DNA of 38,637 nucleotides from Perkinsus olseni (GCA_013115125.1 JABANN010000330.1:1-38637), one strand, 5' to 3'; counted from the first letter of the stretch, positions 1-38,225 are shown. The notes: a model not told the origin generated them from the letters alone. Translations and numbers: made by a program.

Positions 1-345
1 TACTCAATAAAGGATGTCACGGCTCTATGCGGTACAATGTACACAAGATTGGGAATGGTGTGGTATGACATGCGCACATACCAATTGTGTTACATGTCCC
101 ACCTTGTATATATGAGGGACTCGTTGTGTTTCTCATAACAAGTGAAATACTAGCGTGTTCCACTACGAGGGGCCAACTCCACTGCAGCTGCGTCCCAGCC
201 CATTGTCAATGGTCACAGCCAAGGAAGTCAACACTGCAGAGCTGTTGACCCAATAGTAACAAGGATTCGCTACTATGAAACACAAGTTATCATCCTTTCA
301 ACGTCGTAGAAATAATAGACAGAATCGCTTTTGGTAAGTACATTA

Positions 346-1302
346 TCACTTTTGCTTCCTCGGCAACGGGCAAGCCCCTCCAATATTGCAGGACATGATG
401 CACTCCTCAGCGGCTTGGTCCGTATCCTCATCCGAACTGCTACCCTTGGTCGTCGCCATCTTCTCGTCACCGGAAATCTTCCCCTTAGCGATATCACTAG
501 CCTTGCCCGCATTTTTGATCGCCATCAGCGGCTTCATCGTACTCAGTAAACTATTGAACAAACGAGGATAGTCGAACTCCTGCTCGCTCAGGAGGACCTT
601 CACTCGATGCCTCTCCTTAGGTGCCGCGAAACATGCAGGACAGTTGTCAGAGATGACAGGCAGTCTATTTTCACTGGCGAACTCAGCGAGCTGCTTCTCC
701 CTGCAGTAGACCAGCGGTCGAATGACTCTCAAGTCGCCTTGCTGGACGAAGTAGTTGGCCTTCATCGTCCTCAGCGTACCGTTGTGGAAGGCACTCATGA
801 CGAAGCTCTCAGCCAGATCATCCAAATGCTGCCCCAAAGCAAGAGAGGTATACCCGAATTCTCGCATGCATGAGTAAAGCATCCCTCGCTTCATCCGAGC
901 ACAAAAACTGCACAGACTAGGCTTCTTGGGATCGAGAGAATTCTTCGCCATTTCGATCAGCGGCTTCGACAAAAAGTGGTACTCAACGCCCAACGCCTCC
1001 ATGTACCTCTTCAACGGCTCCGGGCTGTACTCTGGCGTCTGGGGGTCGACCGTGGCAGCCCCGATCGTGAATTTAACGGGCGAGCGCTTTCGCATGGCGA
1101 GGAGTAAGTGTAGCATGGTGAGACTGTCCTTGCCGCCAGAAAGGCCGACAAGAATCTTGTCGCCCTCGCCAATCATTTGGAAATCTCGCACGGCCGTACC
1201 GATGAGGAGACGGAGCTTCTTCGACACGACTGGTGTGATGGAGACTTGAGGGAAACCACTCGGGTGCAGCTTAACATGAGGGGCTACCAACTCCGTCGAG
1301 GC
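346..1302 (-). CDS. ttcA: Terminal exon encoding the TtcA (PP-loop ATPase, two CxxC) domain
   Basis: DFQMIGEGDKILVGLSGGKDS, CSFCARMKRG, LGQHLDDLAESF, VIRPLVYCRE, NCPAC. Preceded by a polypyrimidine tract and AG acceptor at 1303-1304. The track's ORF start is a TTG, not an ATG. Confidence 0.92.
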   Translation of the reverse strand, partial: ASTELVAPHVKLHPSGFPQVSITPVVSKKLRLLIGTAVRDFQMIGEGDKILVGLSGGKDSLTMLHLLLAMRKRSPVKFTIGAATVDPQTPEYSPEPLKRYMEALGVEYHFLSKPLIEMAKNSLDPKKPSLCSFCARMKRGMLYSCMREFGYTSLALGQHLDDLAESFVMSAFHNGTLRTMKANYFVQQGDLRVIRPLVYCREKQLAEFASENRLPVISDNCPACFAAPKERHRVKVLLSEQEFDYPRLFNSLLSTMKPLMAIKNAGKASDIAKGKISGDEKMATTKGSSSDEDTDQAAEECIMSCNIGGACPLPRKQK

Positions 1303-4300
1303 CTGAGAAGCAACAGAAGGAGCAGTGAAACGCCGGGAATTGTGATGCAGTGATGATGCAGCGCGAACTAATTAATAGGGGAGCGACAACTCTCTCACAC
1401 GAAGGAAATATGAGAACTAATACAGCTATTCGCTGCAGCTAAGGAATGGGCTAAGTGAAAGGAAAGGTGGTGACTAAGTGGAAAAAGGAAATGGACGATG
1501 AACTGAAGGTTTCCCGGAGACTGCTGTGGAGGAAAGCTCGAGTTGAAATTCAAATACGCCATCCTCAACTGCAGCCGAGACGTCCCCCCTTCGTCACTTC
1601 CCCACCTCGCGCTTCTTAGATTGCCTCTCCTCCTGTTGAGTGCTGATACGTGACGTCATCATCGACTTCCGCTCCTCCTCAGTCATTGACCCGATCGATG
1701 AGTTGAACACACTCTCGCTTGCTCTGACCACAGCAAAAACAGCGTAAAACAACCGCTCCCTCCAACCACTGCGACAGTCAAAGCGGTTCAATTGCACAGT
1801 CTCTTGAGACCACACTTGAGGCTTTCACTTGTAAACCCCTTGAAGTCCCAGTTCCACTCGAGAACGGCTGCTCGGGCAGAGACAATCACCTCTTCGACGG
1901 ACTGCCGTCAGCGAAGCATCTGACCCCGACCCACCTCGCCGGGGAATCGTCCCCTTGTACTCCTCCCTTAAAGAGAGGCACGTTAGGGTCAGTACAGAGC
2001 ATCGGTTGTGGGGAGGATACACCATCTAATGACCACTTGCAATCCGTTGGCAATGCAAACCAGACCAAGTCGGCCAATTGAGGATCGAGTAAAGGGCACT
2101 TCACAGCCGAGAAGGGAACCTGATAGAGAGTCGACACATATTCACAGACAGCTTTTGATAACAACTTTATATTTAATATAATCACCTTACTCGGCATGTG
2201 TGTTCCGAGCGCAGACGTAGTAAAGTATTTCGTACAAGGGGGAAACCTCCCGCAGTTTCCATTCAAGTACGGAGCGCGAAGAGATCTTCAAATACCCAGA
2301 TTCATAATAAGCTCCCTCCCGGGAGGTTGCTGATTGTAATTTCCCAGTATTTTCTACCGAGTGAACGAACGTGCCATACTTGACCCGGCCCCTCAAGGTT
2401 CGCTCAGAGGATACCAAGAACAACGAATAAAGCAAAAAAAGTCAAAGATTCCTCGAGCTGTTCTACTCAGAATTTAGATTGAAAATATCCCGTTCTCTTC
2501 AAAACTAAATGCTCGGGAGCTATGACGATACCCAGTGTAACAACGCCACTGTAGAGAACCCGAATGAAGACACGAAGCCCGAATAAGTAAGGCCACCGAC
2601 CTGCCCAGCTGAGTAGGCATTGTCCACGATAGTATCCGCCCTCTTGATGAGGCTATCTATGCCATCATCACAAGCGGTGGTGGAGCGCATCCCGAGGTCA
2701 GCGATACTGCCAACGTCTTGGCCGAGGACTCGGGACCAGCCGAGATCGGTAGACAGCCACCTGAGGAGACAGGGGATGAGAGGAAGAGCGCCGACGCGGT
2801 GCGGAAGGCGATGATGATGACGAACTCCGGCAACCTCACTATAAGCAGCATCGTAGGCAGTGATTGAAAAACATGAGTGGCCCAGCGAATAAAGGACAGC
2901 CCCGAGTATTCTCACAGTGATTGACAGTGATAGACAGTAAGAGACGAGGTCACCACCATGGCTACGGTAAGATGGACTCCAAGATCGATTTCACCTACTG
3001 TCTCGTCCTGTCTCTTCTGTCTAATTGATGATGCCATTCTCCAGTTGAAGTACTGAAGGTGTAGGCTCCTAGTAGCTTCCAACCATTCTCAGCCACCCAT
3101 AGAATAGATCCTGAAGGGACTCCATCAGATGGGGGCACGCCCGGCCTCTCGCGGTAGGACAACGGGAAATTCTGCCGCCTAGTTAGAATACTATAAACTT
3201 CTCTGCGACTGTGATGAGCAAAGTCCAATAAGCGTACTATAATCAGCTACAAGAGCTCAACCAGAAGACTCTCAGTACTCCCATAACGATACCCGTACCC
3301 ACCTGCAAGGACGTCCAGCTCCTCCTGGGTCATAGAGTAATGAACACCAACCCGCATGAAGCCTGGACGGATCACTTCACAACCACTCGTCCCTGCGAAA
3401 GCGGATACTGCTGTGAGTGGTAGAATGCGCAAGGAAACGAACGATAGCGATAACGACTGCCATCCCCTTGTTGATGGAGATATCATTAAAAGGGTCTTTC
3501 GCTTACTCAGAGAGCTCTCGAGGCGCACGGCCATGTCGTTATCAATTCCCAGCAGACTATGTGCATAAGGGCCAGCACAAGCACAGCCACCTCGTCCCTG
3601 CACACCGAAGACATCATTTAATACGGCGCCGACGAAGTTGTAATGGAGATATCTGACAACATAACCGAGACTATGTCGACCTGCAAAGATACGCTGATAA
3701 TCTGCGTGACCACCGGCGAGTCCTACTTCCTATTGAAGCCCAGCCCATTTCTTCTCAAGATGACGGCACAAAAAGATACTAATTCACCCAAGCTCAGCTT
3801 CAACGTAAGATACTCGAAGAGCAGAGCCTTGGCGCTTGCACTAGGACATCCCGATAGACTTACAGTCCCCTCTTGGTGGCTGGATCTTCATTGTAGAGGA
3901 TATTGAACGACACGATACCCGCGCACTGACTCCGATCCTACATAGTAAGCGAGAGAGTAGCTTTTCACTTTTTTCACACCACCACCAACCTGAGGCCCTA
4001 GTATGTGAATCTTGCTGCATTTGGAGAGCCTTTCGACCAGCTGAGTCGCCATCCGTCTCTCCGTTTTAGCGATCATATCATGGTCCAGCATGCTGTGGAG
4101 GTGGTATACCGCACCCGCCCGAATGCAACCCAGAATATCAGGGGTACCTATAAGAGTTACGGAAGGTGTGGTATGAACTCGAGAACATAATTCCCTACCA
4201 GCCTCTTCTCTCTCCTCATGATTTTGAATGTAACTGTGAGCAACTGGACTGACGTAGAACACAACGCCTCCGCCACAGACCGCAGGGACGGCATTTGTCT

Positions 4301-7069
4301 GATGCTTCTTCTTGCAAAGCAACAGTCCACTACTACCGGGGCCGCCCAGTAACTTATGAGGCGATACAAACGCGAAGTCGATGTACCCTTGAGGATGGGA
4401 TACAGGGTTCATATCAACCTGACAATACGAAAATACGTAAACACGAATCGCTTCGCTCCGCCTACTTTGATTTTGCTACTGGCTGCAGCGAGGTCCCAAC
4501 AGGCAATACCGTTATAGGAATGGACCACGGTAGACAAAGTTGGTATCTGGCAGTATCGTTTTCTGACACCTCCAGCTGATAAATAATGATCCCGCCTACA
4601 TCAAGCATGGCCCCTGTAACATTGCTGCACGCCGATAATACCACTACCGCTACGGCAGTCGTATCAGTAGCCGTTGATTCATTGAAGTGTGCAATCTGCA
4701 ACGTGAAAAAAGGTGAAACGTGCAAAGCTTCGCTCCGCTAAGACTACCTCCTTCAATACCTCCTTCAAGGCGTTGACATCGGCCGTCCCTGTGGTATGGT
4801 CGAGGGGGAGCTCCTGAAGGGCACCGATGATCCTCGACAGTATTCGAACGGCCGACTCAAGTTGATGATGAAATTCCAGTGCGAGATCCATCAGCAAAGG
4901 GGCCACTTCCTCTCCCTATAAAGTATCGCAACGGCATTTATATAAAATCCGTGGGACGATGGGACGATTGCAATACTGCTGATGATGCCTTTCGACGTTG
5001 AACGGGCCCAGAGGACCGGGCGAGGGTGTTCAACTCTCAATTCCATCGGTGGTTGAAAGAGTGGGTTCATTAATTTTTTGGGCTCTGTGAAACGATACGC
5101 CCGTGCGTCTTGTGGCATAGATGACGTAGTTCCCACTAGTAGTACCACTAACTCCGTCTCAAAGACGTTGTCCACGCTGCTGTCCACCGTGCCCGACAAC
5201 TTGTAGTGTGATCCGGGAACTGAGACTGGAAGATACGGCTAGGCTAGAGTGTCGCTGCTTTCATGAGATGAGCCAGCTTGGATACCGCTGCGTAACCCTA
5301 TCATAGTACCCGAAGGAGAGCCTCCTTTGACTATGGGAAAGTGTGAGAGTATCTCACGGAAGGGCAATGTTGAACTATGGTGATTCACAGGATCCAGTAC
5401 CAATACCTACACAGAGGGCAGCGAGAGTACGGACAGGAAACACTATCATTACCAGCAACATATTCGACGCACGAAGACCAAGGAGAGTTTACTGACGATT
5501 AGAAGCTACAGTACGGTGTCATCATATTTTCTGACACCTCTAGCTACCAGAATCAATGATGTACCACCCCCCTGGGAACTCTGTACACTCACCGCTCGTC
5601 TCCTCGTCCTCTTTTTCTGTGTAGTTTTGGACTTGCCCAACTTCTCGGCATGCATGACAGTTTTGACGTGAGATCGATACACGGACTCATTCTTCAGACG
5701 AACGTCGCATAATGTACACTCGCAACCACCCCATCTAGCGGCAGACAACACCGTCACTGCGCCACAAAATTCGAGGCTCCTAACACTACCGGTCCTCTCT
5801 GAAGAACTTCCTTTCATCGTCTTGTCGGTCACCCTGTTGATCGAAGCCCCTACTCTTCCAGAGCATCTCCAGGAACTTATTCGAAGCACCAGTGGCACCG
5901 GCACCGCAGAATATAACTAAAAAAACGAAAGACGGTCGTCTTGAAACTGCCGCCGTACTCAGCAGGTGTCCCAAGGCTAAGTTCGGGAGCAGGTCTGAGT
6001 CCTAATGGCTTTGTAACTCCGAGCTACGACCTAGCGGATGGCCACGGAATCGCTCTTGAAAGGTGCTAAGTCACTCGTCAGCTCTCTTGAGTGAATGCTG
6101 TATCGCTGAGGATGCCAGTGGGAAAGCAGCTCAAGAGTATAGCTCCTGTACACGAGTACAGTAGGGTGAGTTCAGTGTGAAGAACAGGCCTGTTGTAAGG
6201 CTTTCCCCAGGTTGATACCGAAGAGACCCTCCCGCCATATTAACGTGAAATACGATCTCAAACCGTGTGATGATACTGCAATCGCGATGACAACGAGAAC
6301 GTATCATTCCCACAGTAAAATCTGCGCTCAATGGTGGGACCGAATACGACCCGAATTCTTACCAGAATCTTCATGGTTAGCATTGAAATAAGCTCGGACC
6401 TTCTCTCGGGCCTCCGAACGATAAAACGTAGTCTGGCGTGCTGTGGCTGATGCTATTGAATGTGTGTTGCCGTACCTTGAACAGGGTCTATCATGGTCCA
6501 CTGGTACTTCAAGCACGACCTACGTTGGAAGGACTCTGTGGGTGATGAAATCCTCTATGCATTGGAGACCTCTCCCCGAGGCCGTATAGTCGGCGTACCT
6601 AGGAATAGAAAATGAACGACCGAGGGTGATTCTTTTGAAGGCGCCTCCGATTCGCCGGAAAGCTCTGGAAACTGCCAGACACGGCGAAGCAGCAAAATTT
6701 GGCAACACGAATGGTATTAGTCGCGAGATATAGTTGACGGCCTTTGAATAATGAATCGAGGGCAAATGGCGGGACCGCTTCCTTTATTACACCATTCTCC
6801 TGGTAGAATCATCGTAAGGTATTGTTATCCGCTGGTCTTTCCCAATGATCTGTCCTCGGAGATAGTCCACTACTTTATCATAATGCTCAGAGAGGGATCT
6901 ACCCTGACCAGCGAGGGGCTCAGAGGGAGCTATTGGCTGCTCGTCCAAGTTGCCGTATCGTAACATTAATAAGGAAGAACAAGAGAAACTGAGTCTGGGG
7001 TGTACCGCGTGGACCGACAAGTTTTCTGGCGTGTATGGAAGACACTTCTGGTGCACAGTGTAACAACAT
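346..7069 (-). CDS. Multi-exon fusion gene: class-V aminotransferase/cysteine desulfurase-like domain (with internal C2H2 zinc finger) + TtcA-like tRNA-cytidine(32) 2-sulfurtransferase
   Basis: Desulfurase motifs occur in order across exons: YADYTASGR, YGNTHS, IFCGAGATG, NHHSSTLPFRE, CSNVTG, WDLAA, SPHKLLGGPG (PLP Lys), EEAGTP, RGGCACAGPY, PGFMRV. The last exon (1302-346) has TtcA motifs SGGKDS, CSFC, GQHLDDLAES, IRPL, CPAC. Phase-compatible GT-AG exons link the two parts. The ATG at 7069 is tentative but phase-compatible with exon 2. Confidence 0.82.
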
Positions 7070-7170
7070 TATGCCTGACAGTTGCTATAAACTCGCACTA
7101 TCATTAGCTGGTAGTGAACCAGACACCGGAGTCTGTGAACGACTTCGAACCCGATCCGGCTCGCGCGCGG

Positions 7171-7215
7171 ACAACCGAAAGGTCCCGGGTTCTACCCCAG
7201 GATGAAGAGTCTTTT
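7171..7215 (+). pseudogene. tRNA-like 3' half (Asn-like), degenerate
   Basis: AACCGAAAGGTCCCGGGTTCTACCCCAGGATGAAGAG followed by TTTT resembles anticodon-arm 3' side, variable loop, T arm (one mismatch) and acceptor strand. No convincing 5' half. Confidence 0.45.
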
Positions 7216-7237
7216 CGCGGAAGGCGAGCGCGCAATT

Positions 7238-7305
7238 CATACCACTCCATTCGCAGCTACTTGTGGATTGTACCATATAGCACTGTAACAATCATCATCT
7301 GGTAA
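7238..7305 (+). promoter_or_regulatory. Candidate upstream promoter element of SRP RNA copy 1
   Basis: CATACCACTCCATTC starts 68 nt upstream of both SRP copies. ATTGTACCA and GCACTGTA blocks are also shared. Confidence 0.5.
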
Positions 7306-7590
7306 GTCGGGTGTGTAGCGAGCACCTGTATCCCATGCGGGGGCGAGATCTGAGTGAATGGCGTGTCGTGCCGAGAGTCGGTCGGAGATCAGCAGCCCAT
7401 CCCAAGGGGCCACTAAGTTCGGGTGGGTAGGCGGAAGTCATCACATCCGAACATCCGAAGTCGCGGGCACTGGCTAAGGCTGGGAACAGAGCAGGCAATA
7501 CCGCGCGGTGGAACCGGTGAGGGCGGATAACGGCTGAGAGACCGGCACTCTAGGCAGTAACAACGACATGCCAAACACAAAGATCGTTTT
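7306..7590 (+). ncRNA. SRP (7SL) RNA, copy 1
   Basis: Alu-like 5' domain GTCGGGTGTGTAGCGAGCACCTGTATCCCATGCGGG. Helix-8 motif AGG-CTG-GGAA-CAG-AGCAG. Long helix 5 (GATCTGAGTGAATGGCGTGTCGT pairs with ACGACATGCCAAACACAAAGATC). Ends in TTTT; 285 nt. Confidence 0.88.
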
Positions 7591-8396
7591 GTCAACTGTC
7601 GGGTTCGCGGAGGACTTATAAGTGACGTCCTATAAGGAGCTGAATAGGTTGAGTAGAGAATTATCTCCGCCGTCGAGCGCGCAGAGACGGCTACTAAGGA
7701 GTCTTGGAAGGCATGGACGGCATCCAGCTCGTCCATCCCCGTGGCATCGAAGCTCGATCATCGAGCGCATTACTATCAGATCCAGCCGATCAGCCTATAC
7801 TCCAGCCGACGGTTCTTAAAGACCAGAAATGGATGAAGGCCTCGTCTTAGGTTGCTGTAGTATCGCTGTAAAGCAAGCCTGGTGCTTGAATTCCTGACGC
7901 CACTACAACGTAGACGTAGATCTCTGGCGCTCGTCAAAGAGCTACGGAATCTGTCAGTTTGAGCTTTGGGTCACTGATGCGCTCGACGACACTTTCCTCA
8001 CTGTTTTTGAGCTTCCACCACCATAGCCAGTCTGACATACTTGTTTGTAACGCTCTAGTCCATGTCAAGACAGTGCACGAAGTCCGGTGGGTAGTGAAAT
8101 GTGGCAAAGTTTCTTAGTCCTTCCTTAGTCCGCTGAGCGAGTACAGGAACATTCCCGACTCGAGTCTCGGGAATCCCAAGGAGGGTGCTGCGGTACGTAG
8201 TTGAGAGTCTCACCTCAATGAACGACAATTGCTTGAATGTGGCTTTCTTCAATTTCGTAAACTACGCGATTATGGCGGCTTTGCCAGATCTAGGAACTAA
8301 TATCGTCACACCAACTCGCTAGATGAGCGGACGCCCGAGTCGATGCTCCCGCTCTAGTAAGCCATCATTTTCTTCCTCTGTTAGTACTTGTTCGGA

Positions 8397-9182
8397 ATGT
8401 CGCGCTACCTAGTGTGGTGTGGTATTGCTTTTGTTCACCTGGTTGATGCGGAGGAAAAGTACTACTGCTACTTCAAGGCGGATCTATTGGCCCATTGCAT
8501 TGGTAGATCTAGCAGTGGTCCAGTAAAAACTATTTCACAACACGGAGCCTTGCAGGATCCTCAGAAACCAGACGAGCTAGTATTCACCACTGACACTTGC
8601 AGTGTTCAGGACCAACGCCCTGGACAAGGAGTAGGAGGTGCCTTATACGTGGACGCTGTCGTTCCCTGTGACATCGAGGGACTGCAAGCGATGGTCATTC
8701 CCTACCGCGAGACGGAAGGGAGTAGAATCCACCGCAGGCCCACACGCTATCACTTGACCTATCCCCCATCAACCGGGGAGACTCAGTTCGATAAGCTGCA
8801 GCCGATCGCCGTGGGTGACCTCAAGCTCGGTCGGGCTCAGAAGAGCGATGGTATTCTGTCCACCTTCGAAAGCCACAGTCCAATTCACTTGAAAGCCGTG
8901 TTAACAGAAATAAATCTCCCTAATTCTCGCCCGGTAGTGAAGACAACCTTCAAGATGCTAACAGACGCCGGGACCCAGAGGGAGCTATTCCCGTTGAGCT
9001 CAAAAGACGGTGTGATGAGGCTCACTACTACGGAACATCACCCACCACGGGTGGAAGGCTTCTTCTTCAAATTGCCGTCTAGAAGGGATAACTGCTACGG
9101 ACTCATGATCACTTTCAATGATGAGCCTATCATGCTGTTCAATACGAGCATGCGGCCCGGTTATTCCGAGACACATGGGTGA
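8397..9182 (+). CDS. Putative secreted protein, lineage-specific family A, paralog 1 (long first exon; probably continues downstream)
   Basis: Long ORF with ATG at 8397 and hydrophobic signal-like N-terminus. Aligns with 10097-10934 (KYYCYF, KTISQHGA, CDIEGL, YHLTYP, FDKLQPIA, TFESH, DGVMRL, FFFKLPS). Confidence 0.75.
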   Translation: MSRYLVWCGIAFVHLVDAEEKYYCYFKADLLAHCIGRSSSGPVKTISQHGALQDPQKPDELVFTTDTCSVQDQRPGQGVGGALYVDAVVPCDIEGLQAMVIPYRETEGSRIHRRPTRYHLTYPPSTGETQFDKLQPIAVGDLKLGRAQKSDGILSTFESHSPIHLKAVLTEINLPNSRPVVKTTFKMLTDAGTQRELFPLSSKDGVMRLTTTEHHPPRVEGFFFKLPSRRDNCYGLMITFNDEPIMLFNTSMRPGYSETHG

Positions 9183-24406: not shown

Positions 24407-27024
24407 ATGGGTAGCAGAGCGCCTCCTACCAAACGGTCGAGATGCAGCGTTGGTCAGCAGGGCATGCGGACCCTCGATTCTTTCTTCGCCAAAAAGGAGG
24501 TACTAGTGATAATCCTGGTGGCTGTCGGGGGTTCACTGCGGATGCCTGTCACGCTACCGAGAACTCAACGCTACACCGCTTCCGAATTAGAGGGGGTTTC
24601 TTATTATCACTGCTCACGTTACACCCTGTAGGGGTGCGGTGTCCTGGTTCAGATGCGTGAGGGTGTGCTTTTTCAGACGGCCTCCCATGCCACGAGTAAT
24701 GTTGAAGCGATCGACATCGAGGCTAGTCAGAGTAGTAGTGGTCCCGATTCGAGACGCCCGAAGGCCTCTGAGCACCCCGCAGCGGGGGAGCTGGGCAGCG
24801 GTGGTCAAACCTTGAAGTAAGTAGGGGCCTATGCTGATTCGTGGGTACAACGTCGTTTTTCAACTTCTTCTGGAGAGCGTTGCATCACCATCACAACCGC
24901 CCATTGCAGGCCTAAGATCGCCCTCCGGCCGAAGTCATCGGCGTGTCGGCCGACATCCGACAGCCGTCAAGGGGGGCCCTTAGCTCAGCGGGCGAGGCCT
25001 ACCTCCTCGATAGACCTAGTGTACGAGGCTGGCTCTGAAAGGGAGGGGACGGGGAATTCTGTCGGAGGCGTGGCCACTATAATGAGAATAGTAGTCACCT
25101 ACCACTACTCCCTTCCCTCCAGTCAGCGTGCCAGATTAACTACTATGAAGCCCTTCCTTCAATTGGAGCAGATACTGCTTCTACGATCCAGCACCAGCCG
25201 GCCGTCCCGAGTACGACTCAGTCTCTCTCCTTCCTTCACGACGCTAGCCTTAGGTATGATACTCTGGGGTCCTCCTGGCTGTGGTAAGACCACCTTAGCT
25301 CAGCTCCTGTGCCGATCGTTAACCCGATCTGGTCTGCCGTGGCGGCACACTAAACTCAGTGCTGTCAACGCGGGAGTCAACGATGTGAGCTCAGAAAGGC
25401 GTCGTGACTGGCGAGTGCGTCAGCCCTACCCACTCAGGTGAAGAAGGTCGTCGAGGAAGCCACCAACGCTAGGAGGCTCTCCGGAGGGCGTAGGGCTTCG
25501 GCGGCCGGACGATGGTGGGATTTCATTATGGCAGGTACGTTGCTCTTCCTAGATGAAATCCACCGTTTCAATAAAGCCCAGCAGGACGCGCTCCTCCCTC
25601 ACGTCGAGAACGGCACCCTCACGCTCATCGGGGCGACCACGGAAAACCCGAGCTTCCAGTGCAACAGGTGCTGTGCTCGCCTGTCGCTGGTCATACCACT
25701 CCTCCCCCAACTCGTGGTCCGTCAGAGCTCTGGTGTCGCGGTGTCAAATAATTAAGATTCCACCGCTGAGCACCGGGTCTGTGGAGAAGATAGTAGGCAG
25801 TCTGAATAGGTTGGTCGATAATAATTTCTTTTCTAGTTACGAAGAGCACTGTCCAACTACTATCCGCAAGTAGCTGTGGACGGATCGACCGGTGAACTGT
25901 TGAAGACGTTGGCCGAATTTGGGATGGGCGACGTCAGAGCATCCCTGAATGCGCTCGAGCTTGCCTGCGATCTTGCCATGATGAGCCCTGGGGATGCGTC
26001 CCCCGTCATCACACTGCGACTGGAGCATGTCAAAGAGGTCAGCTCGTCGGGGGCGTGTGGACTATGTCGGTGTGGGGAGGGTAGTTGCAGAACGAAGCAT
26101 AAGTAGACTGGGCCCACGGGATGGAGTAGGTCGAGGAAATTGGATTTCAGAAAGAAAAGCTAGTACTGTGAAGCTTGTGAGCACACTGGTTTCAGGCGAT
26201 GGAGACATCTTCCTGTGGGAGGCATCGGCTGCTCGGCTACGATAAGAACGGCGACATCCACTACGATCTTGCCAGTGCCCTACAGAAGTCGATCCGAGGC
26301 TCCGATAAGGACGCTGCAGCGTAGCGGAACGTATCTTCCCTTCAACCCGAGCTTTCATACCTTAGGTATTGGACGACCAGGATGCTGCACGGTGGTGAGC
26401 CTCCTGAGTACGTATCCCGTCGGCTGATGAGAATCGCCTCCGAGGACGTTGGCCTGGCGGATCCACAATCATTGCAAGTAGCTGCGGCAGCTCACACTGC
26501 GACGATGGCCACGGGAATGCCTGAGTGTAGCGACCGAGCTCTTGTGATGAGGTCCTCTAGCGTCAGTTTCCAGGTTCCACTGCCTTGCTGCAGGCAGCCC
26601 TTTACCTCTGCGATGCCCCTAAGAGTAATGCTGTTTATGTAGCATACAAGAACGCAACTAAAGCAATCGAGAACGCCACTACGGACTCTGAGGTGCTCTG
26701 TTTGATTGGATTAGTACCGTAATTCCAACAACTCCTAGTGAGCAGGTACCGGTGCACCTACGCAACGCCCCTACAGGGTTGATGAGGGAGCTCGGCTACG
26801 GACGGGATTATGTTTATACCAATCAACCGCGGCCAACTCGAGCGGGCGAGATGGCGCCCAAACAGTCGTAGGTGGCTGCCTTCGTGGTCTCTGTGCATAC
26901 CTTGGTCAGGTATCTGCCATCGGGTCTCCACCGAGGTGACATCTTCCCAACTGCCTTCTACGATGCACGGCCCGGTCTGCCGTCCTCTTGTCCAACTTGT
27001 GGTACGCGGCTTATCGAGAAATGA
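24407..27024 (+). CDS. WRNIP1: WRNIP1/Mgs1/RarA-family AAA+ ATPase, multi-exon
   Basis: [126 protein letters not shown]. Confidence 0.95.
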
Positions 27025-31248: not shown

Positions 31249-34113
31249 TCACAGTCTGATGCCGTTATTATACGCCCAAGCGAGCGCCTTGTCGAATTTA
31301 AGTCTGTTGGTCTGCTGTTGCTTCCGAATGTATTCACAAGCCTGCAGGAGCAACACAGCTCACAAGGGACGAGCCGCTCGGTGTCTCACAGCCAACCTCT
31401 CTCGAGACGGGAACATGTAGGGATAACGCTGCCGGTTGGCATCGGCGAACCTGATGAGAACTGTAGGCTGGCCACGCCCGCCATCTTCAACTAACCATGG
31501 GATCCAAGTATTGAAGCTGATCTTCTCCGTACGAGCGTCGGATGCATCATCCCAACAGCAGACTCTTATCTGACCGAAACCGAATGCGATTCGAAGTCAG
31601 AAGGTGAGCTCACCCCGCAGACCCTCCAAGCGTCGGCCATGGACGGGTTCTTAGCCAGAGCAACAGCGATATCTGATCAGCAGGACCGTGTGTGGCACAG
31701 TCAGCAGACCCCCACCTCTCCGTGCTTTGGTCGTCCTCGCTCCGTTCAATAATCCCACCGTCCGAGAAGGACAGTTGCTTCAACAGGTCGCTTTCTGGCG
31801 GCATCTGCGAGGCCCGGTGACACCACGCGTGCGGCATCCTTCATTCACTCACGAAGAAGCTCATGTGCGCTCCCGTAGTCGGATAGTCCATCGCCCAGTG
31901 TCCCTTGGTCCTGCAAAACTGAGTTCCTCCATCTCCTCTAACGACGGCAGGCCCACCGTGCCGGCAAGGCGGCGCCCGTGTTCGGATGCTTCTGCATGGA
32001 GCTCTTATCGAAGATATTGGGGAAAGTCAAGTCGGGCATGTCGGCTCCTGAAAGGGAGGTGGCATGAGAGCTACTAGCCTATGCCCGAGTGCGCTCACTC
32101 CTCCAGGCGAAGTTCATTGCGAGAAATCCGGTAGGTAGGGCCGCGGGGTATCGGGTGTCTTTGGGCGTGCAGTACTTTAAAGCTGCTATTTGTTCTGCAG
32201 CCGGCATCTGATCATACAGTGAGACTTAGGGGCACTTCGGATGGGCGGATTTGGGTTGTTTTTGGTGTTGGGACGATGCTAAGTGATCCCAGTCTATTAT
32301 AGCGGCCCTATGCCGTCCACTAGCATCGCCCGATTAGTTCAGCTGGATAGAATGTCTGCCTACGGAGCAGATGGTCGTAGGTTCGAATCCTGCATCGGGT
32401 AGCTATTTAACCCATTCAATCCCCTCCCAACTTGACCTCGTCCATATCCCCGTGAATGAATAGTGTTTTGTCATTAGGCTCTCCGAAAGCCTCGGCATAC
32501 TTCTCCAGCAGATACCCCCGGGTGAAGGTCTCCAATGCGTATCTAAACTCGAGGTAGCCTTCTCGAGTGGCCGAAGCAGCCAGCGTGATGATGGTACCAC
32601 CGCCTACCTGTCTTCCTTCCCTCCATTAACCCTCCTGAACCTCGCCTCAACAGCATCGTCCAGAACACCGTACACGATCTTGTCTCGGAAGGCTTCAAAC
32701 CTGCTGTTGGTGAGGCTGCCGTTGTCAAGCACCACCGCCCGGCCACCTCCGAGACTCGAGGGCAGCTCCCAACAGCAGCGACTTCGACCACTTCTTGAAC
32801 GCTCTCGTCGACTCGACGATAACGAAGACCTGCGCGCTGACCATTCCGTGCATCCTCAATGCAGCAGACGCACATCGACAACAGAGTGAAGCTCATGCAG
32901 TCGGATCTCCAAGATGTCAAGTTCGTACGCAAAGGGGACGAGGTCGACGATCCGGACTGGCGAGGGCCGCGTGCCCGTCATATACCTGGGGCGACATAAA
33001 GGCGGTAAAATCAAAGAGGAGCGGTACGGATTCTTCTGACAGTCCCATTCGAGCTTCCGCGATTGGGGCCTGTCCAGAACTGTCGCCTCCGCTGCGGGCT
33101 CCCGGGAAAGTAAGCGTTGGAGGTGTGTGACGTACCGCCGCACCCACACCTGGGAGGGGACGTGCAGGAGGGAGCCTCCGCGTCAGCTCACTTCGTTGTT
33201 CGGATGATGGCGGTTGACCAGGGCTAGCCAGTCAAACTCAAGACCGGCGATTTCTTCCATTCGGCCGTGGTCTGGGTTGATCTCCCACTCCCCTGCCATC
33301 GGTACAGCCGTTCGACATGATCACTCGTCGCGTCATCTCACCCAGCTCATTGAGATCGACTTGTGCAGCATCTATCCACATGAGATCTCCCTTATCGAGT
33401 ATGCTCTCCGCTGTCACTACGGGAGCTTTGGTGCCTTAGGGACGTGTCCGGCAGAATCAGCGCCACGTAGCCCCGGCCAACCTCTCTTCGCACAATCAGC
33501 CTTCTCGCCTTTGAGCTCCTCAATCGTCCCCTTAGCCTCCAGTAACTCCCGTCCCCTGGCGTCCAACGCCTCCTTCAACCCGATCTAAGTCGATCGCCTA
33601 CGACTACAAACCCGAACCCGGAGCTCCCCACTACCGCTTTCTCCTCCGCTTCCTTCCCGTCTGCCTTCAATGGAGCGGAGCGAAGTTTCTTCAGCACTAG
33701 CTCCAGCCGAGACAGTATCTATTCATACCGAGATCTCGGCCGTCTAGGCCGGCACTACGACAGCTTCCCTCACATCGTCGCCGTGGGGAACAACAGCTGC
33801 CCCCTGCAGGAACGCTCCTTCCTCATTGAGCGACGAAGCCCCTCTTATTGGTACCGAGAGAACGTACAGAGCCGGGAGGAGTACACACACCAGTACTATC
33901 ATCGATCGTAGCCTCGTCCACGACCAAGCGCCCTGAAGGAGGACCACTGCCGTTCCGTACTGGAGGTGGGAGTACCGTATCCCCTCGATGACCGGTCGAA
34001 TGGCGCTGAGTGGCGACCGTCTCCGCAGCCCCCGCGGCAGCGATCCGACCTCTCGTTGCTGACGAAGAAGCAGCCGCCCTACCTCTAGAAGATGACCTCA
34101 ATCCGAGAGGCAT
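31249..34113 (-). CDS. Glycosyltransferase family 17 (MGAT3-like), paralog 2, multi-exon
   Basis: TM segment MIVLVCVLLPALYVLSV; RIVDLVPFAYELDILEIRLHELHSVVD, FIHGDMDE, LLKQLSFSDGG. Shares intron positions with paralog 1. Start is uncertain (34113 or about 33902). Confidence 0.85.
32328..32401 (+). tRNA. tRNA-Arg(ACG)
   Basis: Full cloverleaf: GCCCGAT/ATCGGGT acceptor, GTTC/GAAT D stem, TCTGC-CTACGGA-GCAGA anticodon arm, GTAGG-TTCGAAT-CCTGC T arm. Confidence 0.96.

Positions 34114-34253: not shown

Positions 34254-38225
<3,972 letters not shown>

What the first reader, a model, noticed from the sequence alone, without database searches (positions are those of the whole stretch)
346..7069. Eukaryotic desulfurase-TtcA fusion: candidate one-polypeptide tRNA 2-thiocytidine system
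Seen: desulfurase exons connect to the TtcA exon by an unbroken, phase-compatible GT-AG chain: DVLA|GSILWVAENGW...TR|QWLSTD (2760-2601)|VPFSAVKC (from 2119)|GGVQGD...|ASESVF...KKRE|ASTELVAPH (from 1302). Known: bacterial TtcA is an Fe-S PP-loop enzyme that makes s2C32 on tRNA-Arg/Ser using sulfur mobilised by IscS. s2C32 is not a standard modification of eukaryotic cytosolic tRNA, and eukaryotic Ncs6/CTU1 uses the Urm1 relay. Inference: the sulfur donor and thiolase are fused, implying an uncharacterised eukaryotic s2C pathway. Similar fusions may already exist as automatic annotations in other eukaryotes; I cannot check this.
Basis: partly seen in the sequence, partly recalled or inferred. 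Interest (0 to 1): 0.88.

Follow-up and report, generated by a model that had tools for sequence, protein, structure and literature searches.

The report
Perkinsus desulfurase–TtcA fusion gene
One 20-exon gene of the mollusc parasite Perkinsus olseni encodes a sulfur-releasing enzyme joined to a tRNA-thiolating enzyme; the fusion is real, but the same design has already been described in Toxoplasma and in a sea slug.

Summary
On the minus strand, 6966-346, lies a 20-exon, all GT-AG gene for a 1088-aa protein. Single spliced RNA contigs of 3.3 kb from four runs, two of them RNA-Seq libraries, span both halves. They carry the Perkinsus spliced-leader end at 6990, not at 1302.

The protein has four parts:
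- a SufS-like (type II) class-V PLP enzyme, with PLP lysine and active-site cysteine kept, and an inserted U1-type C2H2 finger;
- a ~90-aa linker;
- a TtcA-like PP-loop domain that keeps the E. coli Fe-S cysteines;
- a disordered Cys tail.

The PP-loop half scores as TtcA, not CTU1/NcsA.

The design is not new. Of the 120 longer homologues listed, 112 carry both domains, across alveolates, oomycetes, ciliates and Diplonema. Toxoplasma TgTtcA was named in 2022, and a 2026 preprint reports s2C32 and an "IscS-TtcA" fusion in Aplysia.

Self-supplied s2C32 synthesis is the best inference but is untested. Verdict: a new member of a known kind, of modest interest. Both deposited Perkinsus gene models are wrong in part.

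The parts
299..6990 (-). Mature mRNA span. The 5' end is at the trans-splice acceptor AG at 6990-6989. The 3' ends of the RNA contigs lie at 299-318.
   Evidence: contigs of 3337, 3347 and 3328 nt in X4, X5 and X2 cover 306/299/318 to 6990.
6989..6990 (-). Spliced-leader acceptor AG, 22 nt upstream of the ATG.
   Evidence: a 9-letter loose end at 6990 in X5 and X2. Its reverse complement plus the genomic AG gives the last 11 nt of PmaSL1 as printed in PMC3101222.
6791..6966 (-). Exon 1 (aa 1-59). The N-terminus starts with 'M.RY', conserved in homologues, so no presequence is evident.
6524..6598 (-). Exon 2 (aa 59-84), motif YADYTASGR of the class-V PLP domain.
6363..6475 (-). Exon 3 (aa 84-122), motif YGNTH.
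5790..5916 (-). Exon 4 (aa 122-164).
   Evidence: Its joints are among the 4 not printed, so support comes from length arithmetic only.
5593..5734 (-). Exon 5 (aa 164-211), holding the inserted C2H2 finger.
5650..5718 (-). C2H2 zinc finger, C-x2-C-x12-H-x5-H (C170, C173, H186, H192). It is U1/matrin-type and is inserted inside the PLP domain.
   Evidence: zf-met 20.5 bits (cut-off 21.2) and zf-C2H2_jaz E 0.005; the family profile hits SF3A2 at E 4.6e-7; the insert is absent from bacterial standalone relatives.
5310..5406 (-). Exon 6 (aa 212-244), with HH220-221, which aligns to the SufS 'EHHAN' motif. This exon is missing from deposited protein P0003.
   Evidence: The RNA contig length needs this exon (arithmetic).
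5146..5219 (-). Exon 7 (aa 244-268).
4748..4813 (-). Exon 8 (aa 269-290).
4600..4695 (-). Exon 9 (aa 291-322), motif SNVTG.
4466..4546 (-). Exon 10 (aa 323-349).
4199..4418 (-). Exon 11 (aa 350-423), with the PLP lysine K371 (codon 4355-4353) in SPHKLLGGPG.
   Evidence: The lysine is invariant in alignment A1 and aligns to SufS 'SGHKMLG'.
3990..4147 (-). Exon 12 (aa 423-475).
3864..3937 (-). Exon 13 (aa 476-500).
3507..3652 (-). Exon 14 (aa 500-549), with the active-site loop RGGCACAGP. C523 and C525 are encoded by codons 3585-3577.
   Evidence: C525 aligns to the catalytic Cys of SufS 'RAGHHCAQP'. Both Cys are invariant in the 28-row alignment A4.
3303..3392 (-). Exon 15 (aa 549-579), invariant RPGF.R.
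2999..3110 (-). Exon 16 (aa 579-616), motif 'WVAENGWKLL..Y.F...GEW.H'. It is part of the ancestral ~550-aa class-V enzyme, not a linker.
2601..2760 (-). Exon 17 (aa 616-669), with invariant W617 ('WLS').
1935..2119 (-). Exon 18 (aa 670-731). 'LVWFALPTD' (2062-2048 for WFALP) matches the C-terminal 'LRWF..P.E' of bacterial standalone enzymes. The true linker starts after it.
1606..1723 (-). Exon 19 (aa 731-770), a poorly conserved linker.
346..1302 (-). Exon 20 (aa 771-1088 plus stop): the TtcA-like PP-loop domain and the C-terminal tail.
1123..1140 (-). PP-loop SGGKDS (aa 825-830), the ATP pyrophosphatase motif.
   Evidence: (invariant), and 51 (119 of 120 homologues).
901..912 (-). First CxxC (C901, C904), which aligns with E. 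coli TtcA C122/C125, both Fe-S ligands.
   Evidence: and 51 (120 of 120).
631..642 (-). Second CxxC (C991, C994), which aligns with the second CxxC of E. coli TtcA. The last Cys of that motif is the third ligand, called 'Cys222' in the paper.
   Evidence: and 51 (120 of 120).
349..510 (-). C-terminal tail, acidic and then Cys-bearing (C1071, C1075, C1081; codons 402-370). It is predicted disordered.
   Evidence: residues 274-318 of the exon-20 model have pLDDT below 50; an 'AEE..C...G.C' motif appears in many but not all homologues; my loose pattern matches 46 of 120.

Best explanation
SHOWN. Window 6990-299 (minus strand) is one spliced-leader-capped, 20-exon mRNA of Perkinsus olseni that encodes a single 1088-aa polypeptide. 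From the N-terminus it contains:
1. A class-V PLP enzyme of a ~550-aa subfamily whose nearest solved relatives are type II cysteine desulfurases (SufS/CsdA). It keeps the HH motif, the PLP lysine K371 and the active-site loop RGGCACAGP, in which C525 aligns to the SufS catalytic Cys.
2. A eukaryote-specific U1-type C2H2 finger inserted into that domain.
3. A poorly conserved linker of about 90 aa.
4. A TtcA-like PP-loop domain with SGGKDS and the three cysteines that bind the [4Fe-4S] cluster in E. coli TtcA.
5. A disordered Cys-bearing tail.

INFERRED. The enzyme acts in the cytosol or nucleus on nuclear-encoded tRNAs. The PLP domain strips sulfur from L-cysteine to form a persulfide on C525. 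That sulfur passes, within the polypeptide or its dimer, to the free iron site of the [4Fe-4S] cluster of the PP-loop domain. The PP-loop domain adenylates C2 of cytidine 32 with ATP and replaces the oxygen with sulfur, giving s2C32. The zinc finger probably helps hold the tRNA helix. The protein is thus a self-supplied version of the bacterial IscS + TtcA pair.
For: One gene and one mRNA:
- RNA contigs from four runs join both halves, with 15 of 19 introns printed, and carry the spliced-leader end at 6990.

TtcA type:
- NF007972 scores 224 bits, against 48 for TtuA and 38 for NcsA.
- Identity to E. coli TtcA is 36% (84 of 236), E 7e-55. C122/C125 and the second CxxC are aligned. Those Cys are the cluster ligands, and the E. 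coli assay needs cysteine + IscS, ATP and DTT (passages read).
- The AF2 model of exon 20 (pLDDT 79, pTM 0.77) best matches the [4Fe-4S] tRNA thiolases NcsA (E 6.5e-13) and TtuA (E 6.9e-13, TM 0.62).
- The closest bacterial relatives, at 52-57% identity, are the only TtcA-type match in 5 of 5 genomes searched.

Desulfurase type:
- The PDB profile search is topped by SufS, at 2.2e-42.
- The HH, HK and Cys-loop motifs align residue for residue.

Selection on both halves, in the 120 longer homologues:
- PP-loop motif: 119.
- Each CxxC: 120.
- 'GC.CA': 114.
- The PLP-Lys pattern: 96.
- Order desulfurase then TtcA: 96 of 96.

Location:
- The conserved N-terminus starts at Met.
- TgTtcA is cytosolic and nuclear.

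Chemistry in a eukaryote:
- s2C32 was found in Aplysia tRNA-Lys(UUU) alongside the same fusion.
Against: - No activity, tRNA modification or protein-level data exist for Perkinsus.
- Both halves fall below curated family cut-offs: TtcA 224 against 272, and the SufS family 110-133 against 475. Neither is a certified equivalog.
- The ~550-aa class-V subfamily has no characterised member that I found (one search lists only generic names).
- Type II desulfurases normally need an acceptor protein such as SufE, SufU or CsdE (established knowledge). No such module is recognisable here.
- Tagged TgTtcA showed smaller bands besides the full-length one, so cleavage into two proteins is possible.
- The Aplysia link between gene and s2C is correlative.
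- In Aplysia s2C32 sits on tRNA-Lys, not on the Arg/Ser tRNAs modified in E. coli, so substrate choice cannot be transferred.
Confidence: 0.6

Rival explanations
1. The PLP half is not the sulfur donor for thiolation. It either builds or repairs the enzyme's own [4Fe-4S] cluster, or carries out another PLP reaction such as selenocysteine lyase or a C-S lyase. The thiolation sulfur would then come from the general cellular pool (NFS1-derived or sulfide).
For: - The class-V subfamily is uncharacterised and scores far below the SufS cut-off (110-133 bits against 475).
- Standalone bacterial members are not next to the TtcA-like genes: 0 hits in 80 loci within +-6 kb.
- Perkinsus also has standalone paralogues (P0251, P0243).
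- E. coli TtcA can be reconstituted with IscS acting only catalytically.
Against: - The fusion order is kept in 96 of 96 homologues that show both motifs.
- The persulfide-forming Cys loop is conserved. This fits a dedicated donor better than a chance neighbour.
- Cluster building would also need a scaffold, and none is fused.
Confidence: 0.2
2. The PP-loop half thiolates something other than C32 of tRNA, such as another position, another nucleoside or another RNA. The TtcA name would then be only a family resemblance.
For: - The score lies below the TtcA equivalog cut-off.
- The domain belongs to a separate short clade. Its bacterial members score the same 221-238 bits and, to my knowledge, are not characterised.
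- E. coli TtcA sits on a very long branch in the tree.
- The nearest structures are U34 and U54 thiolases.
Against: - In 5 of 5 bacterial genomes the short type is the only TtcA-like gene, which fits an orthologue rather than a paralogue with a new job.
- The ligand Cys and the PP-loop are kept.
- s2C32 co-occurs with the fusion in Aplysia.
- Toxoplasma has separate Ncs6 and MnmA for s2U34.
Confidence: 0.12
3. The polypeptide is only a precursor. It is cleaved in the linker, and the two enzymes then work apart.
For: - TgTtcA shows smaller bands on western blots.
- The true linker, about aa 700-790, is poorly conserved.
- The preprint raises the same possibility.
Against: - Full-length TgTtcA is seen at the expected size.
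- Nothing explains why a fusion kept across most eukaryotic groups would be made only to be cut.
- No conserved cleavage motif was seen.
Confidence: 0.06
4. There are two adjacent genes, and the exon chain is a chance or assembly artefact.
For: The deposited models disagree with each other (P0002 has 880 aa, P0003 has 1056 aa). De Bruijn contigs can in principle merge overlapping transcripts.
Against: - The same spliced junctions between the halves occur in contigs of four runs.
- The spliced leader is found only at 6990, and no loose end is listed at 1302 or near 3000.
- Of the 120 longer homologues, 112 carry both Pfam domains, including complete Trinity and MMETSP transcripts.
- Exons 16-18 are conserved coding sequence.
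Confidence: 0.02

Closest known systems
Toxoplasma gondii TgTtcA (TGGT1_294380), PMC9420914, 2022 (passages read)
   Same: An alveolate protein with one PP-loop domain C-terminal to split Aminotran_5 hits, assigned by its authors to the TtcA/TtuA family for s2C32. It is cytosolic and nuclear, which fits the absence of a presequence here.
   Different: It is much longer (PP-loop at residues 1353-1528). No function test was reported in the passages I read. I did not fetch the Toxoplasma sequence, so orthology is inferred from the coccidian homologues (Besnoitia, Eimeria).
Aplysia californica 'IscS-TtcA' (LOC101861551), bioRxiv 10.64898/2026.09.27.754811 (abstract and section 20 passages read)
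   Same: - CsdA-type domain followed by a TtcA-like domain.
- PLP lysine kept.
- A Cys-x-Cys pair in the desulfurase half.
- SGGKDS.
- The 'CSFC ... CPAC' arrangement.
- A single transcript.
- It is found together with s2C32.
   Different: - It is an animal protein. I did not align its sequence.
- The authors call the donor half IscS-like and could not identify the catalytic Cys. Here the half is SufS-like (type II), and the second Cys of GGCACAG aligns to the SufS catalytic Cys.
- They treat about 405 aa as linker. Here most of that stretch is the conserved C-terminal part of the ancestral ~550-aa enzyme.
E. coli TtcA with IscS (PMC4081106)
   Same: A PP-loop ATP-dependent thiolase with a [4Fe-4S] cluster held by three Cys, all aligned here. 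The sulfur comes from cysteine through a PLP desulfurase.
   Different: - Identity is only 36%, and the score is 224 bits against 514 for E. coli on the TtcA model.
- In E. coli the donor is a separate type I enzyme (IscS) encoded far away.
- E. coli TtcA has no zinc finger and no Cys tail.
Short bacterial TtcA-like proteins of sulfur-oxidising Gamma- and Betaproteobacteria (Acidithiobacillus, Thioalkalivibrio, Thiothrix and others)
   Same: - They are 52-57% identical to exon 20 in alignment A2.
- They share the CSFC, QHLDDLAESF and NCPACF motifs.
- They score the same sub-threshold 221-238 bits on the TtcA model.
- They are the nearest neighbours of the eukaryotic clade in the tree.
   Different: They are standalone proteins of 245-270 aa. 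No desulfurase gene lies within 6 kb in any of 80 loci. They lack the tail.
Type II cysteine desulfurases SufS/CsdA (e.g. 8d8s, 5j8q, 1i29)
   Same: The same PLP fold family. The HH motif, Schiff-base Lys and 'R.G..CA.P' catalytic loop align.
   Different: - The score is far below the SufS family cut-off.
- There is about 150 aa of extra C-terminal extension ending in 'RWF..P'.
- There is a C2H2 insert.
- No SufE/SufU/CsdE-type acceptor is evident.
Eukaryotic CTU1/Ncs6-Urm1 pathway and archaeal NcsA/TtuA
   Same: The same PP-loop and [4Fe-4S] thiolase fold.
   Different: The sequence scores are low (38-48 bits). Those pathways have a different sulfur carrier logic (a thiocarboxylated ubiquitin-like protein) and a different target (U34 or U54).

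Membership tests
TtcA, tRNA cytidine(32) 2-sulfurtransferase (NCBIfam NF007972 equivalog) | PP-loop motif SGGxDS | tested here: met
   SGGKDS lies at aa 825-830 (window 1140-1123). It is invariant in alignment A1.
TtcA, tRNA cytidine(32) 2-sulfurtransferase (NCBIfam NF007972 equivalog) | The three Cys that bind the [4Fe-4S] cluster (Cys122, Cys125 and 'Cys222' in Bouvier 2014) | tested here: met
   One search aligns C131/C134 of exon 20 to E. coli C122/C125, and C221/C224 to the second CxxC of E. coli. By my count of the K-12 sequence that motif is C210/C213. The paper's numbers for the last three Cys are 9 higher.
TtcA, tRNA cytidine(32) 2-sulfurtransferase (NCBIfam NF007972 equivalog) | Score at or above the curated cut-off (272 bits) | tested here: not met
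   The score is 224.1 bits. E. coli TtcA scores 513.8, and the short bacterial clade scores 221-238. The domain is best called TtcA-like.
TtcA, tRNA cytidine(32) 2-sulfurtransferase (NCBIfam NF007972 equivalog) | TtcA is the best-scoring thiolase family, ahead of TtuA, NcsA and TilS | tested here: met
   TtcA 224 bits, TilS N-domain 65, TtuA 48, NcsA 38.
TtcA, tRNA cytidine(32) 2-sulfurtransferase (NCBIfam NF007972 equivalog) | Forms s2C at position 32 of tRNA | not testable with these tools
   This needs LC-MS of tRNA or an enzyme assay. The only eukaryotic s2C32 report is for Aplysia.
CTU1/Ncs6/NcsA (U34 2-thiolase) | Sequence membership | tested here: not met
   NF047749 NcsA scores 37.7 bits against a cut-off of 500. 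The fold is shared, but the sequence family is not.
Type II cysteine desulfurase (SufS/CsdA) | Schiff-base lysine in the S-x-H-K context | tested here: met
   K371 in SPHKLLGGPG. It aligns to SufS SGHKMLG and is invariant.
Type II cysteine desulfurase (SufS/CsdA) | Catalytic, persulfide-forming Cys in the loop R-x-G-x-x-C-A-x-P | tested here: met
   In RGGCACAGP, C525 aligns to the Cys of SufS RAGHHCAQP in all three printed alignments. Both Cys are invariant in 28 rows.
Type II cysteine desulfurase (SufS/CsdA) | Score at or above the SufS family cut-off (TIGR01979, 475 bits) | tested here: not met
   P0003 scores 109.8 bits, the Diplonema homologue 132.7, and the bacterial 561-aa relative 150.5. 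This is a separate subfamily.
Type II cysteine desulfurase (SufS/CsdA) | A dedicated sulfur acceptor partner (SufE, SufU or CsdE) | not tested
   No such domain appeared among the Pfam hits on the fused protein. The genome is not held, so a separate partner could not be sought.
Eukaryotic desulfurase-TtcA fusion (TgTtcA / Aplysia IscS-TtcA) | Aminotran_5 N-terminal to a PP-loop in one polypeptide | tested here: met
   The same pair occurs in 112 of the 120 listed longer homologues, and the order is kept in 96 of 96.
Eukaryotic desulfurase-TtcA fusion (TgTtcA / Aplysia IscS-TtcA) | The motif arrangement reported for molluscs: Cys-x-Cys in the donor half, then SGGKDS, CSFC and CPAC | tested here: met
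   GGCACAG, SGGKDS, CSFC and CPAC are all present. The comparison is with the preprint's text, not with its sequences.
U1/matrin-type C2H2 zinc finger (Pfam zf-met, zf-C2H2_jaz) | C-x2-C-x12-H-x5-H with a family-level score | tested here: inconclusive
   The pattern is present (C170, C173, H186, H192). zf-met scores 20.5 bits, just under its cut-off of 21.2. The family profile hits the SF3A2 finger at E 4.6e-7. RNA binding was not tested.

The most novel reading that the evidence does not exclude
The fusion is an ancient, near pan-eukaryotic, fully self-contained s2C32 synthase for cytosolic tRNAs. A SufS-like desulfurase works without any SufE-type acceptor. It hands its persulfide, possibly through the disordered C-terminal Cys tail acting as a swinging arm, straight to the open iron of the [4Fe-4S] cluster of the fused TtcA-like domain. 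A U1-type zinc finger grafted into the PLP domain docks the tRNA. If so, s2C32 would be a widespread but overlooked eukaryotic tRNA modification, lost in yeast and mammals.
Probability: 0.25. Interest if true: 0.6.

Novelty: new member of a known kind. Interest (0 to 1): 0.33.

Why it matters
s2C32 was regarded as a bacterial and archaeal modification until a 2026 preprint found it in Aplysia. This window adds a clean case from a deep-branching alveolate: a spliced-leader-capped, fully spliced mRNA for the fused enzyme.

The analysis also refines three points in the published descriptions:
- The donor half is SufS-like, with an identifiable catalytic cysteine.
- Most of the supposed linker belongs to an ancestral ~550-aa bacterial-type PLP enzyme.
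- The thiolase half comes from a distinct short TtcA-like clade.

If the enzyme is self-sufficient, it would be the simplest known cysteine-to-thionucleoside machine and a handy tool for in vitro tRNA thiolation. For annotation, it shows that both deposited Perkinsus gene models are wrong in part.

Tried and rejected
- Whole genome: none is held for this window. I therefore could not look for a separate CTU1/Ncs6, a SufE-like acceptor or the tRNA gene set.
- Threading with P0003 alone broke at exon 5, because P0003 uses another frame at the end of that exon and skips exon 6. I used a composite guide instead.
- Complex prediction, desulfurase half against TtcA half of the Diplonema homologue: no answer, score 0.00, controls not run. 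This is no evidence either way.
- Bacterial gene neighbourhood: tblastn of the desulfurase halves against 80 loci of the short TtcA-like genes gave no hit. No operon precursor of the fusion was seen within +-6 kb.
- Paper searches that gave nothing usable:
  - 'TtcA' + 'Toxoplasma' matched primer strings.
  - A six-term search was too loose.
  - '2-thiocytidine' + 'parasite' found only the 2022 Toxoplasma paper as relevant, out of 10.
  - 'IscS-TtcA' occurs in one paper only.
- I found no functional study of the fusion in any protist. Subscription journals are not covered.
Donor lineage and timing are therefore not claimed.
- Pfam on nine other long ORFs of the window showed only AAA-ATPase fragments, unrelated to the finding.
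- I considered a plastid or mitochondrial role and rejected it as less likely. The N-terminus is conserved from the first Met, and TgTtcA is cytosolic and nuclear.

Full report
**1. What is in the sequence**

A stop-to-stop ORF scan of 1-8500 shows many short open frames on the minus strand, as expected for an intron-rich eukaryotic gene. Pfam finds a PP-loop domain in 346-1371(-) and Aminotran_5 in 3888-4475(-). NCBIfam places the first closest to TtcA, at 224 bits and E 2.2e-66. TilS-N scores 65, TtuA 48 and NcsA 38.

A search for longer relatives of the exon-20 translation returned 968 proteins at E <= 0.001, of which 120 are listed. Of those 120, 112 carry both PF00266 and PF01171. Two of the listed proteins are Perkinsus olseni proteins, and one of them (P0002) comes from a contig of exactly the window's length. 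The organism is therefore P. olseni. No whole genome is held for the window.

**2. Gene model**

The two deposited P. olseni proteins disagree with each other: P0002 has 880 aa and P0003 has 1056 aa. tblastn of both against the window shows where they differ.
- P0002 skips from exon 11 to exon 15 and also skips exon 16, so it loses the catalytic-Cys region.
- P0003 lacks exon 6 and reads another frame at the end of exon 5. Threading with P0003 alone therefore broke there.

A composite guide gave a clean model:
- 20 exons, with 19 GT..AG introns of 47-481 nt;
- ATG at 6966 and a stop at 348-346;
- a 1088-aa product.

The '|' written before GGVQGD is not an intron.

**3. Transcript evidence**

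A run search found 24 holders of this stretch. I laid four of them on 250-7150.
- Each of X4 and X5 (RNA-Seq libraries) and X2 holds one contig, of 3337, 3347 and 3328 nt. These run from 6990 down to 306, 299 and 318.
- X1 holds a 2895-nt contig.
- 15 joints are printed. All are CT..AC on the + strand, all occur in all four runs, and all lie at model introns. They include the five that link the desulfurase half to the TtcA exon: 3109/3302, 2758/2997, 2117/2599, 1723/1935 and 1301/1605.
- Four further joints are 'not shown'. They should be introns 3-6. By my arithmetic on the printed record positions, the unlisted stretch is 870 nt, which equals exons 2-10 after the printed offsets. That count includes exon 6.

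At 6990, X5 and X2 carry a 9-letter loose end. Its reverse complement plus the genomic AG gives the last 11 nt of the Perkinsus spliced leader PmaSL1 as printed in PMC3101222 (passages read). The leader is therefore added 22 nt upstream of the desulfurase ATG. No loose end is listed at 1302 or near 3000. Contigs cannot exclude rare isoforms.

**4. Anatomy and conservation**

An alignment of 22 homologues covers perkinsids, dinoflagellates, chromerids, a gregarine, Amoebophrya, Diplonema, ciliates, oomycetes and unnamed transcripts.
- Invariant: the PLP lysine, RPGF.R, W of 'WLS', SGGKDS, and both CxxC motifs.
- Nearly invariant: the Cys-x-Cys loop and 'WFALP'.
- In a 28-row alignment both loop cysteines are invariant.

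Across the 120 longer hits, many of which are partial models, my patterns count as follows:
- PP-loop: 119.
- CxxC-1: 120.
- NCP.C: 120.
- GC.CA: 114.
- Strict Cys loop: 101.
- PLP-Lys context: 96.
- C2H2 pattern: 82.
- Order desulfurase then TtcA: 96 of 96.

**5. The donor half**

A profile of the family against PDB sequences is led by type II desulfurases: SufS 8d8s at 2.2e-42, with 59 distinct sequences at E <= 1e-5. Three motifs align in the printed alignments:
- the family 'EHHS' to SufS 'EHHAN';
- 'SPHKLLGGPG' to 'SGHKMLGPTG';
- 'RGGCACAGP' to 'RAGHHCAQP'.

The second cysteine (C525 here) therefore takes the place of the SufS catalytic Cys.

The half is not a SufS proper. TIGR01979 gives 110-133 bits against a cut-off of 475.

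Its nearest standalone relatives are bacterial 'aminotransferase class V-fold' proteins of about 550-575 aa. They are 34-38% identical over 95-100% of the region (1580 hits, 120 listed). Aligning five of them shows two things:
- They run through the 'WVA..GW.LLP.Y' block and end with 'LRWF..P.E', which is the Perkinsus 'LVWFALPTD' of exon 18.
- They lack the C2H2 insert.

Exons 16-18 are therefore part of the ancestral enzyme. The real linker is only about aa 700-790.

The insert has the pattern C-x2-C-x12-H-x5-H. It scores just under the zf-met cut-off. As a profile it hits the SF3A2 finger at 4.6e-7. By established knowledge that is a finger class which contacts RNA helices.

**6. The thiolase half**

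Against E. coli K-12 TtcA (fetched), exon 20 is 36% identical over 236 residues, E 7e-55. C122/C125 and the second CxxC are aligned. Bouvier et al. 2014 name Cys122, Cys125 and 'Cys222' as the cluster ligands. They also show that the assay needs cysteine + IscS, ATP and DTT (passages read). Their numbers for the last three Cys are 9 higher than my count of the K-12 sequence.

The AF2 model of exon 20 has mean pLDDT 79.3 and pTM 0.77, and residues 274-318 are below 50. It best matches NcsA (E 6.5e-13) and TtuA (E 6.9e-13, TM 0.62), followed by TilS.

The closest standalone proteins are bacterial, 245-270 aa long, from sulfur-oxidising proteobacteria.
- In alignment A2 they are 52-57% identical to exon 20.
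- They score 221-238 bits on the TtcA model, like the Perkinsus domain. E. coli TtcA scores 514.
- In 5 of 5 of their genomes this is the only match to the model.
- None of 80 loci has a desulfurase-like gene within 6 kb.

A maximum-likelihood tree had 31 rows: 17 eukaryotic, 13 bacterial and E. coli. One of the 18 eukaryotic rows I chose fell to my length and motif filter. The tree puts all eukaryotic domains on one side of a branch, with support 91/82 and in 90% of 200 bootstrap trees. An Acidithiobacillus sequence is next to them. The E. coli branch is flagged as long, and the root is at the midpoint only.

**7. How it most likely works**

Shown: one mRNA, one reading frame, and both catalytic sets intact and conserved.

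Inferred:
- The PLP half makes a persulfide on C525 from cysteine.
- The PP-loop half adenylates C32 and receives the sulfur on the free iron of its cluster, as proposed for E. coli TtcA.
- The finger helps bind tRNA.
- The site of action is the cytosol or nucleus. The N-terminus is conserved from the first Met, and TgTtcA is localised there.

The weak point is that type II desulfurases usually need an acceptor protein. The disordered Cys tail is a candidate shuttle, but it is not universal: my loose pattern matches 46 of 120. A complex prediction of the two halves gave no answer.

**8. What is already known**

- PMC9420914 (2022; passages read) lists TGGT1_294380 with one PP-loop and two Aminotran_5 stretches and names it TgTtcA. 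It reports the expected full-size band plus smaller ones, and a cytosolic and nuclear signal. I saw no functional test in those passages.
- bioRxiv 10.64898/2026.09.27.754811 (abstract and section 20 passages read) reports the first eukaryotic s2C, at position 32 of Aplysia tRNA-Lys(UUU). It also reports a 1177-aa 'IscS-TtcA' protein in 28 mollusc species and, as data not shown, in birds and insects. There is no genetics or enzymology on the fusion.
- 'IscS-TtcA' occurs in that paper only. Searches found no functional study in protists.
- Database names such as 'ttcA [Symbiodinium]' and 'tRNA 2-thiocytidine biosynthesis protein TtcA [Diplonema papillatum]' show that the fusion is routinely auto-annotated.

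**9. Verdict**

This is a new, well-documented member of a known kind.

- a corrected gene model with RNA support;
- the type II nature and the catalytic Cys of the donor half;
- the true extent of the linker;
- the inserted finger as a eukaryotic addition;
- the origin of the thiolase half in a short TtcA-like clade.

Noticed in passing
window 346-6966 (-): Both deposited P. olseni models of this gene are faulty. The window's own protein P0002 (880 aa) omits part of exon 11, exons 12-14 and exon 16, so it loses the catalytic Cys loop. P0003, from another isolate, omits exon 6 (HH motif) and reads a different frame at the end of exon 5. The RNA contigs fit the 20-exon, 1088-aa model.
   Followed up: yes
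window 32328-32401 (+): The only tRNA gene ARAGORN finds in the window is tRNA-Arg(ACG). Its anticodon loop reads C32 U33 A C G G37 A38. In E. coli it is the tRNA-Arg species that carry s2C32, so this is a plausible but untested substrate type.
   Followed up: partly
window 5751/5772 and 4443/4463: RNA contigs in X1, X4 and X5 have long loose ends (52-255 nt) that leave the window sequence at these points, inside or beside introns 4 and 10. They may come from an allele, a paralogue or another organism in the metatranscriptomes. This is unexplained.
   Followed up: no
window 2204-2591, 4833-5156, 5888-6392: Run X1 also holds low-depth contigs (19-31, against 743 for the spliced contig) that cover intron sequence, with two 1-nt indels (2441, 5073). 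They could be unspliced precursor or DNA carry-over of a slightly different haplotype.
   Followed up: no
P0251, P0243, P0245 (other Perkinsus contigs): Perkinsus also encodes standalone paralogues of the desulfurase-like half. One is FOZ60_014518, 452 aa and 49% identical. Another is a P. marinus protein 67% identical over 62% of the region. This parallels the standalone CsdA-like gene reported in Aplysia.
   Followed up: no
window 24821-25441 (+) and 34254-34790 (-): Open frames with AAA-ATPase P-loop and AAA lid hits. They are probably exons of unrelated AAA+ genes.
   Followed up: no
L001 (E. coli K-12 ttcA) versus PMC4081106: The paper's numbers for the last three cysteines of E. coli TtcA (200, 219, 222) are 9 higher than a plain count of the K-12 protein (191, 210, 213). 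Cys122 and Cys125 agree. This is worth remembering when mapping ligands.
   Followed up: partly
P0068 (metagenome protein, 1382 aa): One homologue carries a thioredoxin domain (PF00085) in addition to the desulfurase and PP-loop domains. A built-in reductant would fit the DTT requirement of the E. coli TtcA assay.
   Followed up: no
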